Sequence record: PV806337.1 | Reading direction: 5' to 3' (one strand) | Length of the DNA: 64,000 nucleotides | Origin: a phage | Shown: piece after piece, positions 3,910 to 31,523 of the stretch | Position numbering within the stretch: the first letter of the stretch is position 1 | Layout: the number at the start of each line of letters is the position of its first letter | The notes under the pieces: generated by a model | What the model saw: only the letters and a program-made list of their open reading frames with translations | Told to the model about the DNA's origin: nothing | Database searches by the model: none | Made by a program: the position numbers and the translations under genes

Positions 3910-4705
3910 AAGGTCTACCCTCTAAATGAGCTTCTACACGAGCAATAAAATCAGGATCACTAAAAGCATCTACCGCACCTTTACTCCAGTAAGGGACACC
4001 ACGTTCTTCCAGCTGGTACATCTCACTACGAGTCATACCTTGATAGCCCGGTTCCGCCGCGAGGGCACTATCATAGTAGTTAACTACCATAAATTTCGCA
4101 GCAGTCCTATTAAGAACAGGAAATAATTCCCAGTAGAAGTTAATTACTTGGTTAGAGCAACCAACCACAATGATCATATCTTGACTGGTAATACCATCAA
4201 AAACATTATACATTTCTGCGTATGCAGGAGCATGCTCTCCAAAGAAGATTACATTAGGTTTAACCCATTTATAATCATCTGGATCAATAGAATTGTATCC
4301 TACATCAATAATCCGTTTATTGCTACTATTGTAGCTATCAGCTACAACAACCTCTTTTAAATATCCGTGAATATGCAGAATGTCACTATGTGGAACGCCA
4401 GCACGCTCAATAAGGTCATCAACGTTGGTAGTCAAGTTTACTACTTGACCTGGATATTGTTTATACCATTCACCAATACGCAAATGCGCAAGATTGGGTT
4501 CAACAGTTTTTAGCTCTTCACGACGCTTGTTGTAAAACATATGGGTTTTATGATAAAAATTACCACGAAAGGCATGAATATTACATACTTCTTCTAGATC
4601 ATAGTCATCCCACAATGCTTTACCACTAGCAGTATCAGTACGGAAGGCTCGTACACCACTTTCAACACTCAAACCCGCACCACTAATAATAATTAATCTA
4701 CGCAT
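3869..4705 (-). CDS. Sir2-family (sirtuin-like) NAD-dependent deacetylase / ADP-ribosyltransferase-like protein
   Basis: ORF track 278 aa; motifs GAGLSVESG..FR, TTNVDDL, IHG, VIFFGE, VVGCS match sirtuin core; no Zn-binding Cys pairs seen. Confidence 0.7.
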   Translation of the reverse strand: MRRLIIISGAGLSVESGVRAFRTDTASGKALWDDYDLEEVCNIHAFRGNFYHKTHMFYNKRREELKTVEPNLAHLRIGEWYKQYPGQVVNLTTNVDDLIERAGVPHSDILHIHGYLKEVVVADSYNSSNKRIIDVGYNSIDPDDYKWVKPNVIFFGEHAPAYAEMYNVFDGITSQDMIIVVGCSNQVINFYWELFPVLNRTAAKFMVVNYYDSALAAEPGYQGMTRSEMYQLEERGVPYWSKGAVDAFSDPDFIARVEAHLEGRPYVSRSKGNRYVHS

Positions 4706-20057: not shown

Positions 20058-20228
20058 ATGAAATCAGTTGTAATTATTGGTGTTAACACTCGCGGTATTC
20101 GTACTACGAAAACTGTTAAAACTTCTAACGTTGCTGAAATAACTACGAACCCTAAAAAGTTTGATTTCGCCAAAGTCTCAGCAGTTATGACAGAACAATC
20201 TTTTAACCAAGCATTGGGGATGAAATAA
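20058..20228 (+). CDS. hypothetical small protein
   Basis: 56-codon frame read by eye (below track cut-off); GAGAGGAAG RBS after promoter 19998-20026. Confidence 0.45.
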   Translation: MKSVVIIGVNTRGIRTTKTVKTSNVAEITTNPKKFDFAKVSAVMTEQSFNQALGMK

Positions 20229-20662
20229 TGGGTGAAAATATTCTAATGACCCTTCGTGGACTACTTAGTCTAGCACGTACTCACGGTGATAAGGAACGGG
20301 CACTTAATCTTCAGACCATGATTGGTGATCTGCAACGTATTGATAAAGACATTGTTACTCGAACCGAGTTCGTAGCCTATCTGAAAGCTCAGATTAAGGC
20401 TCTAGAAAATGCAAAACAACGCGCTATTAAAGTTGGTATGGAAGTTCCTACTGATGTAGACTATGAGCAACTGCTTTATTCCATGCTGCAAGAGTATCAG
20501 CCAAGTCAACTGACTGAGGTTCAGATTCGTGAGTATTTTGCAGAACTGGTTAAATTAAACCCAGGTATTACCAAAGCTCTATTAATGAAAACTATTAAGG
20601 CAGAATTTCCCGGACGTTATGACGGTAAAACAACTGCTTTGATTGCTAGTGAATTTTTCTAA
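20228..20662 (+). CDS. hypothetical protein
   Basis: ORF track 144 aa. Confidence 0.55.
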   Translation: MGENILMTLRGLLSLARTHGDKERALNLQTMIGDLQRIDKDIVTRTEFVAYLKAQIKALENAKQRAIKVGMEVPTDVDYEQLLYSMLQEYQPSQLTEVQIREYFAELVKLNPGITKALLMKTIKAEFPGRYDGKTTALIASEFF

Positions 20663-20670
20663 AAATTCAT

Positions 20671-20699
20671 TTGCTAAATGCTTATAAATTCTGTATAAT
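20671..20699 (+). promoter_or_regulatory. T5-type promoter driving ORF-free/tRNA segment
   Basis: TTGCTA 20671-20676, 17 bp, TATAAT 20694-20699. Confidence 0.7.
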
Positions 20700-20922
20700 A
20701 TATTCATAAATTAGGGAACAGCGAGCCGATTACGCTGAGTGCAGAATCCCAACCGGAGCGCATTGAATAGAGTCGGTGGGTTAGTTGTAAAACTAGTACA
20801 CAGGGGGCGGCAATCCCGGTTAGTGGCTAGAACGTGTAAAATGAGGCGTCTGAAACCTCTCCCCTAAACTCTTCTCTGATTTATAAATAGTGGGGTGTGG
20901 AAATCACTTATGTAGTAACACT

Positions 20923-20994
20923 GCCGTCCTAGTATAATTGGTATTATCAAGCCGTAACTGGTGGAAGATGTAGGTTCGAATCCTACGGTCGGTA
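20923..20994 (+). tRNA. tRNA-like gene, anticodon unresolved
   Basis: Canonical T-arm GTAGG-TTCGAAT-CCTAC followed by acceptor 3' strand; 5' acceptor pairs with one mismatch; no clean anticodon stem found by eye. Confidence 0.35.
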
Positions 20995-21496
20995 AGAACT
21001 GGATAACTGATGCTTTTAACATAAAAGCTTCCGAGGTTAGTTGCGCACTGCCTAAACCACGCGGTAGTTGGTTCCAGACTAACCAACCAGTCTGCTGAAT
21101 AGTTTTATTACGATTTAACTATGTCCAGGCTAAAGAAGAACTTTAGAAGGTATTCTAGGATAGTGAAGTTCTTTCTCCATATCGGAGTAGTTTTTCAAGC
21201 TATCCACAAAGTGGGAAATGCTGACATGAGAGATGTCACTAATGGTGCACAATAGCACAGGTAATTCGCGATAACTCCTGTTGAGTAGCAGCAAAAGGTG
21301 GGAAGTCATGACCCCAAGCCTAACCGAGTCCTCAATATACCGCAGGACATAACCACTAAGTCACCCTGACTTAAACTGGAAAATAATAGACGTTACTGTA
21401 TTTTGTCTTGAAATACTTAATGAGTGAGACTTATGACTCTCCCGGTATCGTCTGTATTTTTAAGAGTTTTTACGAGAGTTCTTAAAAATACTTAAA

Positions 21497-21571
21497 CGGG
21501 GTGTAGTCTAAGGGAGAGGCAGGAGTCTTCTAAATTCCTTTATGCAGGTTCGAATCCTGTCACCTCGGCCA
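21497..21571 (+). tRNA. tRNA-Arg (anticodon TCT)
   Basis: Acceptor CGGGGTG/CACCTCG, D-stem GTCT/AGGC, anticodon loop CTTCTAA, T-loop TTCGAAT, encoded CCA. Confidence 0.7.
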
Positions 21572-21605: not shown

Positions 21606-22553
21606 ATGTTTGCTACTAAAAATATGAAAGAACTGACTTCTGAGCAGAAAGTAATTCGTACTATTAAACGTTGGGGTATTGGTGCTGTAGTTGGTTTAGC
21701 AGGTTTAATCCTAGCTTTTAATTCATATACTATTGTTTCTGATGGTACGGTTAAAACCCAAACATTCCTGGGTAAAGTAGACCCTAATCCAGTATTGCCG
21801 GGCTTCCATCTTGTAAACCCGTTTGCATCTTTCGATACTTTTAGTACAAAAGATATTGCTGTAAAATTAGATAAACTTCAGGTTCCTAGCCAGGATAAGT
21901 TTAAATCCACTGTTGACCTGACTGTTATGTTGCAGTTTGATGGTTCTAAAGCACCGATTAACCGTATTAACGCAGGTACTCAGGATCAGGCACTAGACAA
22001 GTATGTAACTGAAAAATTACTGTCTACTATTCGTGAGTTTGGTAAGTCTGTACCTAAAGCACAAGATTTATTTGATGCTAAAATTCAGGCTCAATTGCAA
22101 ACTGCAATTCAACAGGAAGTTGAAGAGTATGCGCGCCCATATGGTTACACAGTTAAGCAGGTATTCCTTCAGGATATTACCTTGCCGCCAGTAATCATGG
22201 AACAGGTACAGAATACCAAAGTTCGTGAAGAGCAAGTTAATGCTGCGAAAGCTGAACTTGCTCGCGTTGAACAGGAAGCACAGCAAAAAGTTAAACAAGC
22301 AGAAGCAGATCGTGAAGCTCGTAACAACCAAGCTATTGCTAATGAACGTGACGCAGATGCTAAACTGTACGCAGCTAAGAAAGAAGCTGAAGCTAACGCC
22401 GCATTGCAACGTACCATTACTCCTGAAATGATTCGTTGGAAACAACTGGAAGTTGAAATGATCCGTGCTCAGAAGTATCAAGGTGGTGTACCTCAGACTG
22501 TGGTAGGTACTGGCTACGATGGTCAAATGATCATGGATATGCGTAACAAGTAA
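21606..22553 (+). CDS. SPFH/band-7 (prohibitin/HflK-like) membrane protein
   Basis: ORF track 315 aa; N-terminal TM segment, SPFH-like core, Ala/Glu/Gln-rich coiled-coil tail. Confidence 0.65.
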   Translation: MFATKNMKELTSEQKVIRTIKRWGIGAVVGLAGLILAFNSYTIVSDGTVKTQTFLGKVDPNPVLPGFHLVNPFASFDTFSTKDIAVKLDKLQVPSQDKFKSTVDLTVMLQFDGSKAPINRINAGTQDQALDKYVTEKLLSTIREFGKSVPKAQDLFDAKIQAQLQTAIQQEVEEYARPYGYTVKQVFLQDITLPPVIMEQVQNTKVREEQVNAAKAELARVEQEAQQKVKQAEADREARNNQAIANERDADAKLYAAKKEAEANAALQRTITPEMIRWKQLEVEMIRAQKYQGGVPQTVVGTGYDGQMIMDMRNK

Positions 22554-25201: not shown

Positions 25202-25279
25202 GGTTCTCAAGCTCATATGGTATGAGCACCCGGCTCATAACCGGAAGGTACGTAGGTTCGAATCCTCGGGGAGCCACCA
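25202..25279 (+). tRNA. tRNA with CAT anticodon (Met/fMet/Ile2 type)
   Basis: Acceptor GGTTCTC/GGGAGCC, D-stem GCTC/GAGC, anticodon loop CTCATAA, T-loop TTCGAAT with weak T-stem, CCA. Confidence 0.5.
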
Positions 25280-27003: not shown

Positions 27004-27078
27004 GCACCTTTAGCTGAGATGGATTAGCGCTTGCCTGAAGAGCTTGAGAGGTTGGATCGTTACCAACGGGGTGCTCCA
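27004..27078 (+). tRNA. tRNA-Phe-like (anticodon GAA), atypical
   Basis: Acceptor GCACCTT/GGGGTGC, anticodon loop CTGAAGA, non-canonical T-loop ATCGTTA, CCA; anticodon stem has two U-U mismatches. Confidence 0.45.
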
Positions 27079-28107: not shown

Positions 28108-28209
28108 AATTCTGTGTAGAGTTAAGTAAACCGGTAGCCAACCAGCTATCATTGCTGACATCGAATTCAGCCATAGATACCATTTTCGTTAATAACTGAG
28201 GAAACAAGC

Positions 28210-29108: not shown

Positions 29109-29230
29109 CAAAATTTCAGTGCAGAACACGGAGCTAGCAATTCGGAAGTGCTGACTCATGATAAGCTGCCTATGTACTTGCGAAGCGGTCGTGTCCAAGA
29201 CTCGGACTCTTGCACTGAAAACAATCAAAC

Positions 29231-29352
29231 ATTCTAGCGTGGTTGATGGGGAAACCAGCTTGGCGAGGGCAGAAGCTCGTTCGATTCGAGTGAAAGAATG
29301 GTTCTCGTAAGTCCGCACAAGTGATAACAGGTTCGAGTCCTGTCTAGAATGA
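29231..29352 (+). ncRNA. 122-nt tRNA-like structured RNA (acceptor-like helix, D-arm, two T-arm hairpins)
   Basis: ATTCTAG (29231-29237) pairs perfectly with CTAGAAT (29346-29352); D-arm TGGT/ACCA; T-arm hairpins GCTCG-TTCGATT-CGAGT and ACAGG-TTCGAGT-CCTGT; no CCA; no ORF. Confidence 0.3.
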
Positions 29353-29500
29353 CACTATAAAGTTTACTTATTATGTAGGTTCCGATAGACCGGCGGGTCT
29401 ATTCTGGCATTTAAGAGAGGTCTCGCAAACTTCTTTGTCAGCCGTGGGGTTGGTAGCCTCCAGGTGGCCTACACAATAAGTAAATTTATTAAAAATTCAT

Positions 29501-30201: not shown

Positions 30202-30438
30202 ATTTATATAAATTGATGAGGAGAAATCCTCATCATAGTTCACTAAGGTATTAGCTCGACCTAGGACTGGCTACCAAAAAGCACGATCCCTACGATTTGG
30301 AGAAGTTCTAGATTAGTCCACTAGATTCAGCGGCAACTGAATAGTGTATTGGGTTTGCGAGATGACGCAGTTCCTTCCGCTCGAAGCGAAGGTGCTGTAG
30401 TTACGCCGAGCTAATAGCCTTAGTAAACTAAAGAATTT

Positions 30439-31157: not shown

Positions 31158-31523
31158 AAATCTTGAAGTATGCCGGAATCGGTAGACGGGGCTGCCTAAA
31201 AGGTTTATAGGGAACATCCACTCCCTGCAACATACCTCATAAAGCGGCTGAGATAAATGGTCTATCTCGTGAAGGTTCAAGTCCTTCTGCTTCTTGATAT
31301 ATCTATGGCTCAAAGTGTAACGGTGCTATTTGATGCTCTTAGTAAGACTTTCCCGACATGCGTTCGGGAGTAAGCTGCTAAGGCTAGAGTAGAAGAGTTT
31401 CGGAGAGCCGCCACAATTGAAAATTCGTACTCGTCTTGAGCTGCGCGCAATAGGAGATAACTTGATTAGTATTCTAGAACATGCTAATTGAGGATGGTTT
31501 CGCTAACCCTGCGAGTTTTCAAT

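What the first reader, a model, noticed from the sequence alone, without database searches (positions are those of the whole stretch)
20700..21496. About 800 nt of promoter-driven non-coding sequence around the first tRNA-like gene
A perfect T5-type promoter at 20671-20699 is followed by ~220 nt without an ORF, then a tRNA-like gene (20923-20994) whose anticodon arm I could not fold cleanly, then ~500 nt more without a credible ORF (the only track ORF, 20904-21086 reverse, is short and lacks start signals) before tRNA-Arg. Local hairpins are common, for example GTTGGTT-CCAGACT-AACCAAC near 21070-21090 and GACATGAGAGATGTC near 21226-21240. This is a candidate locus for stable phage small RNAs or decayed tRNA genes.
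Basis: seen in the sequence. Interest (0 to 1): 0.6.

Follow-up and report, generated by a model that had tools for sequence, protein, structure and literature searches.

The report
Large structured phage T5 RNA (rnaX)
The ~800-base promoter-driven gap is one large, intricately folded non-coding RNA of T5-like phages, already labelled "RNAX, function unknown" in the T5 reference genome, that carries a tRNA-shaped module on a conserved helical arm and resembles the enigmatic giant phage RNAs found next to tRNA genes.

Summary
A T5-type early promoter (20671-20699) is followed by ~790 nt with no credible ORF. This contains a tRNA-like element (20923-20994) and ends at tRNA-Arg (21497).

The stretch is the locus annotated rnaX/T5s08, "stable RNA with unknown functions", in T5 (NC_005859), BF23, phage 5 and DT571/2.

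It is neither a set of small RNAs nor decayed tRNAs. It is one modular, highly structured RNA:
- 95 curated base pairs are 93.7% paired in 16 diverse relatives, with 22 pairs changed on both sides against 1-5 in slid controls.
- G·U pairs outnumber A·C 145 to 10, so the fold is on the + strand RNA.
- The leader and trailer of the tRNA-like element form a 12-bp helix (P2) that clamps it.
- P2 is kept in five Demerecviridae lineages. In Proteus and Providencia phages a plain hairpin replaces the tRNA-like cap.
- An invariant palindromic loop (GUCAUGAC), a pseudoknot and a 17-bp 3' hairpin complete it.

No Rfam family matches and no bacterial genome holds it. The viable T5 st0 deletion appears to remove it.

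The function is unknown. It most likely acts as a stable accessory RNA scaffold of the GOLLD/ROOL kind.

The parts
20671..20699 (+). Sigma-70 T5-type early promoter (-35 TTGCTA, 17-nt spacer, -10 TATAAT). The transcription start is inferred at A20706.
   Evidence: 10/12 match. The homologous site in T5 is annotated promoter P 16-17. The block is repeated at other T5-like intergenic sites. The start site is inferred from my own knowledge of PN25-type T5 promoters.
20708..20882 (+). 5'-terminal stem (20708-20717 with 20870-20882) enclosing 'module A' (20718-20869), an apical expansion that T5 proper lacks. Module A holds the hairpin 20719-20723 / 20733-20737. Its loop GCCGA (20725-20729) pairs with UCGGU (20773-20777), forming a pseudoknot.
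   Evidence: T5 has only the minimal hairpin, and L020 shows compensatory changes in the stem; the hairpin and pseudoknot covary as GCCGA/UCGGU, GCAGA/UCUGU and GCAUA/UAUGU.
20888..20922 (+). Conserved leader. It contains GUGG (20890-20893), a candidate long-range partner of CCAC at 21353-21356 (P0); GGUGU; the P2 5' strand AUCACUUAUGUAGU (20903-20916); and the linker AACACU.
   Evidence: P0 is nearly invariant across the family. In DU_PP_V both strands change to ACGG/CCGU and still pair (read by eye).
20923..20994 (+). tRNA-like module (non-decoding). Acceptor, D and T arms and the elbow nucleotides are kept. The 1-72 pair is G·U and 5-68 is U·U. The anticodon arm is a 3-4 bp stem with a 6-nt loop. 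No CCA is encoded.
   Evidence: Rfam 35.5 bits. Not called by ARAGORN. Covariation counts.
20995..21028 (+). Trailer: linker AGA, P2 3' strand ACUGGAUAACUGAU (20998-21011), and hairpin H1 (21012-21017 with 21023-21028).
   Evidence: P2 is 99.2% paired in 21 sequences, with 7 of 12 pairs changed on both sides. It scores 12/14 in ten representatives of five lineages, with conserved C·C and G·G 1x1 loops. H1 covaries as UA/AU/CG.
21035..21087 (+).
   Evidence: GGCAG/CUGCC changes to GACAG/CUGUC, and GUUGGUU/AACCAAC changes to GUUGAUU/AAUCAAC.
21182..21238 (+).
   Evidence: P5 has 3 pairs changed on both sides. UCGG/CCGA is 96.9% paired, but only with one-sided changes.
21296..21357 (+). Hairpin P7 (21296-21302 with 21313-21321) presenting a 10-nt loop AAGUCAUGAC (21303-21312) that holds the invariant 8-nt palindrome GUCAUGAC. 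Then CCGA (21324-21327), hairpin P8 (21328-21332 with 21344-21348) and the conserved motif AUAACCACU (21349-21357).
   Evidence: P7 has 5 of 7 pairs changed on both sides and P8 has 3 of 5. The palindrome occurs once in the 64-kb window, and a dimer is favoured in silico. It is present in Tequinta-, Epseptima-, Sugarland-, Hongcheon- and Novosibvirus.
21359..21453 (+). Hairpin P9 AGUCA-CCC-UGACU (21359-21371), the conserved single strand UUAAACUGGAAAAUAAU (21372-21387), and a three-way junction P10 (closing helix 21388-21396 with 21445-21453, plus two inner hairpins joined by CUUAAU).
   Evidence: most of the sequence-dissimilar versions give the same architecture in independent MFE folds, though several give alternative folds.
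21454..21496 (+). P11: a 17-bp A/U-rich hairpin with a UACG loop (21454-21491), plus a 5-nt tail (CUUAAAC incl. last stem base; 21492-21496) up to the inferred RNase P site of tRNA-Arg.
   Evidence: 100% paired in 16 sequences, with G·U to G-C/A-U changes. It is 90-100% identical even in Pectobacterium phage DU_PP_V. No + strand terminator was found.
21497..21571 (+). tRNA-Arg(UCU), co-transcribed. Its 5' maturation by RNase P would create the 3' end of RNAX.
   Evidence: 49.3 bits. The processing step is inferred from the general RNase P pathway.

Best explanation
The stretch 20706-21496 encodes one large (~790 nt) non-coding, highly structured RNA. It is the rnaX 'stable RNA' of T5-like phages.

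SHOWN
- It is not protein-coding.
- It folds, on the + strand, into a 5'-terminal stem with an expandable pseudoknotted apex (module A).
- A conserved arm (helix P2) is formed by the leader and trailer of a tRNA-shaped but non-decoding module.
- A series of covarying hairpins follows: H1-H3, P5, P7-P9, a three-way junction and a 17-bp terminal hairpin.
- Invariant single-stranded motifs lie between the helices, and one loop holds an invariant 8-nt palindrome.
- The P2 arm (leader, H1, H2) and the module-A anchors are shared by five Demerecviridae lineages; the palindromic loop is seen in all of them except the Providencia phage, and the terminal hairpin P11 is absent from both the Proteus and Providencia phages. 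Peripheral modules, including the tRNA-like cap, are swapped, expanded or replaced.

INFERRED
- Host RNA polymerase makes it early from a strong T5-type promoter, as part of a transcript that runs on into tRNA-Arg and the SPFH gene.
- RNase P cleavage at tRNA-Arg releases it with a hairpin-protected 3' end, and the 5' stem protects the other end. This would make it metabolically stable.
- RNase P may also nick it at G20923. If so, P2 would keep the pieces together.
- It then acts in trans as an accessory RNA scaffold. It is dispensable in the laboratory, since the viable T5 st0 deletion appears to remove it.
- In T5, Epseptima-, Sugarland- and Hongcheonviruses it presents a tRNA elbow/acceptor mimic. 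It possibly self-associates through the GUCAUGAC loop to bind or sequester a component of the tRNA/translation machinery or of a host defence.

My probabilities: structured ncRNA identical to rnaX, 0.9. Stable trans-acting scaffold rather than a mere leader, 0.6. Self-association through the palindromic loop, 0.3. tRNA-mimic sequestration or counter-defence as the actual role, 0.25.
For: Identity:
- 100% identical to T5_ev212.
- Homologous stretches are annotated misc_RNA rnaX in NC_005859 with promoter P 16-17, DT571/2, BF23 and Salmonella phage 5.

Non-coding:
- ORFs are 60 aa or shorter.
- There is no third-position excess, and relatives carry frameshifting indels.

Structure:
- Cloverleaf plus H1: 87.8% paired against 34-51% in slid controls, 13 pairs changed on both sides, 0/500 shuffles reaching this.
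- P2: 99.2% paired, 7 of 12 pairs changed on both sides, slid controls 25-41%. It scores 12/14 in all ten representatives, including Proteus and Providencia phages.
- 95-pair curated structure: 93.7% paired, 22 pairs changed on both sides against 1-5 in controls, 0/500 shuffles.
- RNAalifold: 28 of 105 pairs carry compensatory changes.
- Most sequence types of the 3' junction fold to the same architecture.
- The pseudoknot occurs in three covarying versions.

Strand: 145 G·U cells against 10 A·C cells.

Distribution:
- 526 phage records match.
- Also found in DU_PP_V, Proteus phage 1 and Providencia PSTCR5.
- None in 185,579 bacterial and archaeal species genomes.

Ends:
- P11 lies 5 nt upstream of tRNA-Arg.
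- There is no + strand terminator.

Palindrome: unique in the window, and a dimer is favoured in silico at -28.2 against 2 x -6.7 kcal/mol.

Dispensability: the st0 junction joins T5p066 to the remnant of T5p079. No RNAX or SPFH sequence is found in the 5.5 kb of the st0 record around that junction.
Against: - I had no expression, end-mapping or stability data. 'Stable RNA' rests on GenBank notes whose primary evidence I could not read.
- The single-sequence folding energy is not exceptional (z = -1.45).
- The long-range pairings P0 and UCGG/CCGA are nearly invariant. P0 has one lineage with a change on both sides; UCGG/CCGA shows only one-sided changes.
- An RNAalifold helix (GGUGU:GCACU) conflicts with the covarying hairpin H2, so I dropped it.
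- The tRNA-like cap is absent from the Novosibvirus and Priunavirus versions. tRNA mimicry therefore cannot be the universal core function.
- The Providencia version lacks the GUCAUGAC loop.
- The RNA appears dispensable for growth on laboratory E. coli.
- Heavy mosaicism and large indels could also fit a tolerant spacer, although the covariation argues against that.
Confidence: 0.65

Rival explanations
1. The stretch is a cis-acting leader or processing cassette. It exists only to drive and process the downstream tRNA-Arg and SPFH mRNA (RNase P/RNase E entry sites, mRNA stabilisation) and has no role in trans.
For: - The stretch lies between a promoter and tRNA-Arg/SPFH with no terminator.
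- P11 sits just before tRNA-Arg here, or about 15-20 nt before a ribosome-binding site in Epseptimaviruses.
- The tRNA-like element has a canonical U(-1)/G(+1) RNase P context.
Against: - 0.65-1.3 kb of covarying structure with invariant loops is far more than processing signals need.
- The RNA is conserved while the downstream neighbour changes: tRNA-Arg, a 169-aa ORF, two small ORFs, or a 135-aa ORF with tRNA-Arg ~1 kb away.
- Other tRNAs of the same cluster have no such leader.
Confidence: 0.15
2. The stretch is a graveyard of decayed tRNA genes and spacer DNA, evolving neutrally.
For: - The stretch lies at the edge of a 20+ tRNA cluster.
- One element is tRNA-like with a defective anticodon arm.
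- Annotators label it pseudo-tRNA, tRNA-OTHER, Sec, Ser or Pro.
- Indels are frequent.
Against: - Compensatory changes maintain every arm of the tRNA-like element and about 15 other helices.
- Invariant motifs persist across subfamilies that are no longer alignable by BLAST.
- No further tRNA-model hit is found at E<=10.
Confidence: 0.03
3. One or more small proteins are encoded here, for example 21121-21255 (+) or 20904-21086 (-).
For: ORFs of 42-60 aa exist. Some annotators call 'hypothetical proteins' here, and Sugarland annotates three small CDS in its version.
Against: - There is no codon-position bias in any frame.
- The 21121-21255 and 21130-21309 ORFs are frameshifted in T5 and mar003J3.
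- The ORFs that stay open are those overlapping the conserved tRNA-like element.
- The T5, FZ41 and PWKp9S annotations leave the region free of CDS.
Confidence: 0.02
4. The conserved inverted repeats act at the DNA level, as an origin, nick site, recombination or protein-binding site. GTCATGAC and AGTCA-N3-TGACT would be operators for a dimeric protein.
For: Both motifs are DNA palindromes sharing the half-site GTCA/TGAC, and both are invariant. Homing-endonuclease genes and an insertion flanked by direct repeats occur in the region.
Against: - Helices tolerate G·U but not A·C (145 against 10 cells). This is expected only for + strand RNA.
- The tRNA model match and the pseudoknot have no DNA-level rationale.
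- The stems flanking the palindrome covary.
Confidence: 0.03

Closest known systems
rnaX / T5s08 'RNAX, stable RNA with unknown functions' of phage T5 (NC_005859 40848-41566; also BF23, Salmonella phage 5, DT571/2)
   Same: Same locus and synteny: YqeY-like gene, promoter P 16-17, RNAX, tRNA-Arg, SPFH lipoprotein. The core is 91-99% identical.
   Different: The window's version carries a ~150-nt 5' expansion (module A) that T5 lacks. It lacks T5's ~87-nt insertion that duplicates P9. The database records give no structure, boundary evidence or function.
GOLLD (RF01998) and ROOL (RF03087) large ornate RNAs
   Same: - Phage-encoded.
- 0.6-1.3 kb and non-coding.
- Located in or next to tRNA islands.
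- A conserved part plus a variable part.
- A tRNA (here tRNA-like) is sometimes embedded.
- Non-essential, with unknown function.
- Loops suited to RNA-RNA contacts.
(for GOLLD/ROOL; here.)
   Different: - No covariance-model match at E<=10 in five lineages.
- Different secondary structure.
- Hosts are Enterobacterales and the phages are virulent Demerecviridae.
- Oligomerisation is untested.
Bacterial Y RNA YrlA (tRNA-like module on a helical stem)
   Same: A non-decoding tRNA mimic with conserved T and D arms, attached to a helix within a larger non-coding RNA (paper PMC4201824 listed, abstract only; details from my own knowledge).
   Different: - No Rfam match.
- No Ro60/rsr gene among the neighbours.
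- Here the connection to the rest of the RNA is through the acceptor end and the anticodon arm is closed.
- RNAX is several times larger.
tRNA-like processing modules such as MALAT1-mascRNA (own knowledge)
   Same: A tRNA-shaped element inside a long non-coding transcript that could recruit RNase P/RNase Z to define ends.
   Different: Those are eukaryotic. In RNAX the leader and trailer pair (P2), so cleavage would nick rather than separate the RNA. Cleavage is untested.
Other stable RNAs of phage tRNA clusters: T5 RNAI, RNAIII, RNA1, RNA2 etc.; T4 species 1 and 2 RNAs (own knowledge)
   Same: Promoter- or tRNA-linked stable non-coding RNAs of unknown function in the same gene cluster. Some are tRNA-like with large insertions.
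   Different: They are 73-172 nt. RNAX is 5-10 times larger and multi-domain.

Membership tests
T5 rnaX locus (GenBank annotation) | Sequence homology and position between the promoter after the YqeY-like gene and tRNA-Arg(UCU) | tested here: met
tRNA (RF00005) | Covariance-model score at or above the gathering threshold | tested here: met
   35.5 bits against 29. Homologues score 30-38 bits.
tRNA (RF00005) | Canonical anticodon arm: 5-bp stem, 7-nt loop with U33 and an anticodon | tested here: not met
   The model skips 18 nt and ARAGORN makes no call. The arm is a 3-4 bp stem with a 6-nt loop, and its length and sequence are hypervariable among lineages.
tRNA (RF00005) | Free acceptor end with encoded or added CCA; aminoacylation | not testable with these tools
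   No CCA is encoded (A73 is followed by AGA). The leader and trailer are paired in P2. Processing is unknown.
GOLLD / ROOL / OLE / HEARO / raiA large RNAs (Rfam) | Match to the family covariance model | tested here: not met
   No hit at E<=10 or E<=5 in the window, Sugarland, DU_PP_V, KKP_3711, EK80, L052 or Proteus phage 1.
GOLLD / ROOL kind (large ornate phage RNAs) | More than 500 nt, extensive covarying structure, phage-encoded, adjacent to a tRNA island | tested here: met
.
GOLLD / ROOL kind | RNA-only homo-oligomeric assembly | not testable with these tools
   There is only an invariant palindromic loop and an in-silico dimer.
tmRNA | Split tRNA-like domain plus a tag reading frame | tested here: not met
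   ARAGORN finds no tmRNA and there is no Rfam hit.
Y RNA (YrlA) | Covariance-model match and linkage to Ro60/rsr | tested here: not met
   No Rfam hit. The neighbours are YqeY-like, DUF7616 and SPFH genes.
Group I / II introns and small self-cleaving ribozymes | Covariance-model match; exon context | tested here: not met
   No hit.

The most novel reading that the evidence does not exclude
RNAX is the coliphage counterpart of the GOLLD/ROOL class. In this reading it is a self-assembling RNA (a dimer or higher oligomer through the invariant GUCAUGAC kissing loop). It displays or encloses a tRNA-shaped module and protects the phage's translation supply, for example by sequestering a host tRNA-directed defence or processing factor. 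T5 and E. coli would then be the first genetically tractable system for this kind of giant phage RNA.
Probability: 0.15. Interest if true: 0.85.

Novelty: new variant of a known kind. Interest (0 to 1): 0.62.

Why it matters
The existence of the locus is not new. T5's reference annotation has called it RNAX, "stable RNA with unknown functions", for two decades.

What appears to be undescribed is its nature. It has no Rfam family, and I found no paper on it in the searchable library. It is a 0.65-1.3 kb, modular RNA with extensive covariation, conserved across at least five Demerecviridae lineages. It has a tRNA mimic clamped on a universal helical arm and an invariant palindromic loop.

Large ornate phage RNAs next to tRNA islands (GOLLD, ROOL) are a standing puzzle, and they are studied in hosts that are hard to manipulate. 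An analogous RNA in T5 infecting E. coli K-12, with a ready-made viable deletion (st0), would make the question of what such RNAs do directly testable. It would also give a concrete candidate function to one of the classic "stable RNAs" of T-odd phages.

Tried and rejected
1. Known RNA families. I scanned the window region, five relatives and the Proteus version with Rfam at permissive E-values. Only tRNA hits appeared.
2. Wider homologues in IMG/VR.
   - The pattern AGTCATGACC...ATAACCAC returned 61 loci, but all the non-T5-like ones are chance matches inside coding sequence.
   - The tRNA-like and P11 patterns found only T5-likes.
   - The metagenome scan gave 11 T5-like contigs.
   - Two genome-contig scans found nothing.
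3. Single-sequence folding of 872 nt gave z = -1.45, which is uninformative.
4. The RNAalifold helix GGUGU:GCACU was rejected. It overlaps the covarying hairpin H2, and in 'long-type' relatives its partner is engaged locally. The alternative GGUGU:ACACU would be a pseudoknot and is contradicted by L051/L052. It is left open.
5. The alternative hairpin CAGACU/AGUCUG (21075-21094) was rejected because it is broken in L051.
6. A functional link to the upstream 'tRNA amidotransferase/YqeY-like' gene is weak. The Pfam YqeY hit is only 18 bits (cut-off 27). The gene is absent at that position in Sugarlandvirus, and the DU_PP_V protein at that position has no hit.
7. Literature searches for RNAX, T5 stable RNAs, T5 transcriptomes and ornate RNAs in T5 found no description. 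The 2005 T5 genome paper is not held.
8. My first P2 table was mis-indexed. It was redone.
Full report
**1.

The window is a T5-like phage. The stretch is 100% identical to Escherichia phage T5_ev212 and nine other records.

- **Neighbours.** The finding lies between a 144-aa gene (20228-20662; weak YqeY-like Pfam hit) and tRNA-Arg(UCU) at 21497-21571. An SPFH/band-7 gene follows (21606-22553).
- **Promoter.** The promoter-like site is real: TTGCTA-17-TATAAT at 20671-20699, 10 of 12 matches. This is strong rather than 'perfect'. About 50 nt of it recur at other promoter-type intergenic positions of T5-like genomes. In T5 the homologous site is annotated 'promoter P 16-17'. By analogy with PN25-type T5 promoters (my own knowledge), transcription should start at A20706.
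- **tRNA-like element.** The Rfam tRNA model hits 20923-20994 at 35.5 bits (threshold 29) but skips the anticodon region. ARAGORN does not call it.
- **ORFs.** No ORF longer than 60 aa lies in the stretch.

**2. It is an annotated but uncharacterised gene**

- In the T5 reference (NC_005859) the homologous 719 nt are misc_RNA rnaX/T5s08, 'RNAX, stable RNA with unknown functions'.
- The same label is used in DT571/2, BF23 and Salmonella phage 5.
- A second T5 record marks only a pseudo-tRNA there.
- I found no paper describing RNAX in the searchable library, and the T5 genome paper is not held.
- Whether RNAX was ever observed as an RNA therefore remains unknown to me.

**3. It is not coding**

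- I compared the six ORFs of 42-60 aa with seven relatives. Substitutions show no third-position excess; for example the counts by codon position are 15/12/7 and 5/8/10.
- The 21121-21255 (+) and 21130-21309 (-) ORFs are hit by 1-nt indels in T5 and mar003J3.
- The ORFs that stay open are those overlapping the conserved tRNA-like element.

**4. It is a structured RNA on the + strand**

I gathered about 50 distinct versions from INPHARED, IMG/VR and metagenomes.

*tRNA-like module*
- It keeps its acceptor, D and T stems through compensatory changes.
- It keeps the elbow nucleotides (G18 G19, T-loop UUCGAAU).
- It carries a conserved non-Watson-Crick 1-72 pair (G·U or G·A) and a U5·U68 mismatch in 17 of 21 sequences.
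- With hairpin H1, 87.8% of cells are paired against 34-51% when partners are slid. Thirteen pairs changed on both sides, and 0 of 500 shuffles reach this.
- Its anticodon arm varies by lineage. It is a 3-4 bp stem with a 6-nt loop in T5 types, an 11-bp arm in Sugarlandvirus, and a 6-bp stem with a triloop in DU_PP_V. So it is a tRNA-shaped body, not a decoder.

*Helix P2*
- RNAalifold revealed that the 14 nt upstream (20903-20916) pair with the 14 nt downstream (20998-21011) of the module.
- P2 is 99.2% paired in 21 sequences, with 7 of 12 pairs changed on both sides. Slid controls give 25-41% and 0-1 such pairs.
- This explains the otherwise odd conservation of the 'leader'.

*Downstream helices*
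- H1, H2, H3, P5, P7, P8, P9, the P10 three-way junction and P11 all persist.
- The curated 95-pair structure is 93.7% paired in 16 sequences. It has 22 pairs changed on both sides against 1-5 in slid controls, and 0 of 500 shuffles reach this.
- The P9-P11 segment exists in at least five mutually dissimilar sequence versions. Most of them fold independently into the same hairpin / three-way-junction / long-hairpin architecture, though several MFE folds give alternatives.

*Strand*
- G·U cells outnumber A·C cells 145 to 10. The selected structure is therefore RNA of the + strand, not a DNA cruciform or an antisense RNA.

*Single-sequence folding*
- The folding energy alone is unremarkable (z = -1.45).

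**5. Architecture and modularity**

*5' end*
- The transcript begins with a terminal stem (20708-20717 with 20870-20882).
- In T5 proper this is a minimal hairpin. In the window it encloses a ~150-nt expansion, module A.
- Module A starts with a hairpin whose loop pairs with a downstream pentamer. Both the hairpin and this pseudoknot covary: GCCGA/UCGGU in the window type, GCAGA/UCUGU in DU_PP_V and Proteus phage 1, and GCAUA/UAUGU in Providencia PSTCR5.

*Candidate long-range pairings*
- GUGG (20890-93) with CCAC (21353-56). In DU_PP_V both strands change to ACGG/CCGU and still pair.
- UCGG (21182-85) with CCGA (21324-27).
- Their support is thin because they hardly vary.

*Invariant motifs*
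- CUAAACCACG, AAAGUGGGAAA, AUAACCACU and UUAAACUGGAA.
- Most striking is the P7 loop AAGUCAUGAC. Its 8-nt palindrome occurs once in the 64 kb and strongly favours a dimer in silico. The flanking stem covaries in 5 of 7 pairs.

*Size*
- T5: about 720 nt.
- The window: about 790 nt.
- DU_PP_V: about 990 nt.
- Sugarlandvirus: about 1,290 nt.

*Insertions in relatives*
- Some Epseptimaviruses carry an HNH endonuclease gene between the promoter and the core, and a 169-aa ORF between P11 and tRNA-Arg.

**6. Distribution**

- blastn finds the RNA in 526 phage records: Tequintavirus, Epseptimavirus, Sugarlandvirus and unclassified Markadamsvirinae.
- The full arrangement is recognisable by motifs and structure in Pectobacterium phage DU_PP_V (Mccorquodalevirinae).
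- Proteus phage 1 (Novosibvirus) has an 805-nt gene-free gap before tRNA-Arg. It contains the module A anchors, the GUCAUGAC loop, the leader, P2, H1 and H2. However, the tRNA-like cap is replaced by a plain 34-nt hairpin and P11 is missing.
- Providencia phage PSTCR5 (Priunavirus) is similar, with another hairpin cap, and its tRNA-Arg lies 1 kb away.
- P2 scores 12/14 in all ten representatives. The same C·C is kept (U·U, shifted by one position, in DU_PP_V) along with the same G·G 1x1 loops.
- So P2 is the universal element, and the tRNA mimic is a lineage-specific decoration of its tip.
- Nothing matches in 185,579 bacterial and archaeal species genomes. Apparent IMG/VR hits outside T5-likes are chance matches.

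**7. How it most likely works**

*Shown:* a non-coding, + strand, multi-domain structured RNA gene behind a T5-type promoter.

*Inferred:*
- It is transcribed early together with tRNA-Arg and SPFH, since no + strand terminator is present.
- RNase P cleavage at 21496/21497 leaves P11 plus a short tail as a 3'-exonuclease block. The 5' stem protects the other end. This would account for the 'stable RNA' label.
- The tRNA-like module has a canonical U(-1)/G(+1) RNase P context, so it may be nicked. P2 and P0 would keep the halves together.
- The RNA appears dispensable in the laboratory. The st0 deletion junction joins T5p066 to the remnant of T5p079 (the YqeY-like gene), an interval that contains rnaX in wild type. 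No RNAX or SPFH sequence is found in the 5.5 kb of the st0 record around that junction.
- Other viable tRNA-region deletions stop short of rnaX.

I therefore favour a trans-acting accessory scaffold. In most lineages it presents a tRNA elbow/acceptor mimic, and it may self-associate through the palindromic loop. The tRNA/translation machinery or a host defence would be the likely target. These functional steps are hypotheses, with my probabilities at 0.25-0.6.

*Rivals:*
- A purely cis-acting leader (0.15).
- Decayed tRNAs (0.03).
- Small proteins (0.02).
- DNA-level sites (0.03).

**8. Comparison with known systems**

- **Membership.** It is the T5 rnaX locus by homology. It passes the tRNA model's score but fails the defining anticodon arm. 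It matches no Rfam family otherwise: GOLLD, ROOL, OLE, HEARO, raiA, Y RNA, tmRNA, introns and ribozymes are all absent.
- **Resemblance.** It is closest to GOLLD and ROOL. These are large phage RNAs near tRNA islands with a conserved and a variable part, sometimes an embedded tRNA, non-essential, and held together by kissing loops. It is not a member of either family.
- **Topology.** The tRNA mimic on a helix recalls YrlA Y RNAs and mascRNA-type modules, but the connectivity and context differ.

**9. Novelty and verdict**

The locus is already annotated, so its existence is not new. Its nature as a family-wide, ornate, modular RNA with a P2-clamped tRNA mimic seems undescribed. It makes a GOLLD/ROOL-like puzzle testable in E. 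coli.

Interest: 0.62.

Noticed in passing
window 28110-28182, 29230-29354, 29373-29475, 30249-30419, 31162-31306, 31307-31413, 31418-31523: All seven other 'stable RNA' loci annotated in T5 are present in the window at 85-99% identity: rna3, rna2, rnaIV, rna2H, rna1, rnaI and rnaIII. rna1 and rna2 fold as tRNA-like bodies (acceptor plus T arm) with large insertions in place of the anticodon arm.
   Followed up: partly
window 25202-25276 and 27004-27075: There are two further Rfam tRNA-model hits (40.3 and 31.5 bits) that ARAGORN does not report. They are probably the T5 tRNA-Ile2(CAU) homologue and another degenerate or atypical tRNA.
   Followed up: no
L004 (T5 AY587007) and L091, at the position corresponding to window ~21358-21382: T5 proper and one metagenomic relative carry an ~87-nt insertion. 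It is a 64-nt hairpin flanked by a 23-nt direct repeat of AGTCACCTTGACTTAAACTGGAA, so P9 is duplicated. It looks like a target-site duplication or a slippage event.
   Followed up: partly
L146 (T5 st0, AY692264) 4168-4347: The annotated st0 recombination site joins T5p066 to the remnant of the YqeY-like gene. The classic heat-stable st0 mutant therefore appears to lack rnaX, tRNA-Arg and the SPFH gene, yet it is viable.
   Followed up: partly
L051, L055, L058, L059 (Epseptimavirus), upstream and downstream of the RNA core: An HNH_3 homing-endonuclease gene sits between the promoter and the RNA core. A conserved 169-aa ORF with no Pfam hit sits between hairpin P11 and tRNA-Arg.
   Followed up: partly
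L143 7984-8000 (Proteus phage 1) and L145 1262-1280 (Providencia PSTCR5): Isolated T-arm-like hairpins (CUGGG-UUCAACU-CCCAG and GAGG-UUCGAUU-CCUC) lie in the 5' part of the RNAX-like RNAs that lack the P2 tRNA-like cap. No tRNA-model hit is found in the Proteus phage RNA (the Providencia locus was not scanned). They are possibly a relocated or vestigial tRNA-like piece.
   Followed up: no
window 21606-22553; loci L037-L044: The SPFH/band-7 protein downstream of tRNA-Arg has ~76% identical homologues in ~175-kb T4-like phage contigs. This suggests exchange between unrelated phage groups.
   Followed up: no
window 20058-20225 and 20228-20662: The small upstream protein is a full-length DUF7616 (113 bits). 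The protein widely annotated as 'tRNA amidotransferase' hits YqeY only weakly (18 bits, below the cut-off of 27), so that product name is poorly founded.
   Followed up: partly
non-window type relatives (L027, L030, L051, Sugarland), aligned to window ~21160-21200: A conserved hairpin UCGCA-UCGAAAAUCGGAGG-UGCGA exposes a perfect Shine-Dalgarno-like GGAGGUG in its loop. The window type has UAUCGGAGUAG instead. This may be relevant to ribosome binding, which has been reported for GOLLD pull-downs.
   Followed up: no
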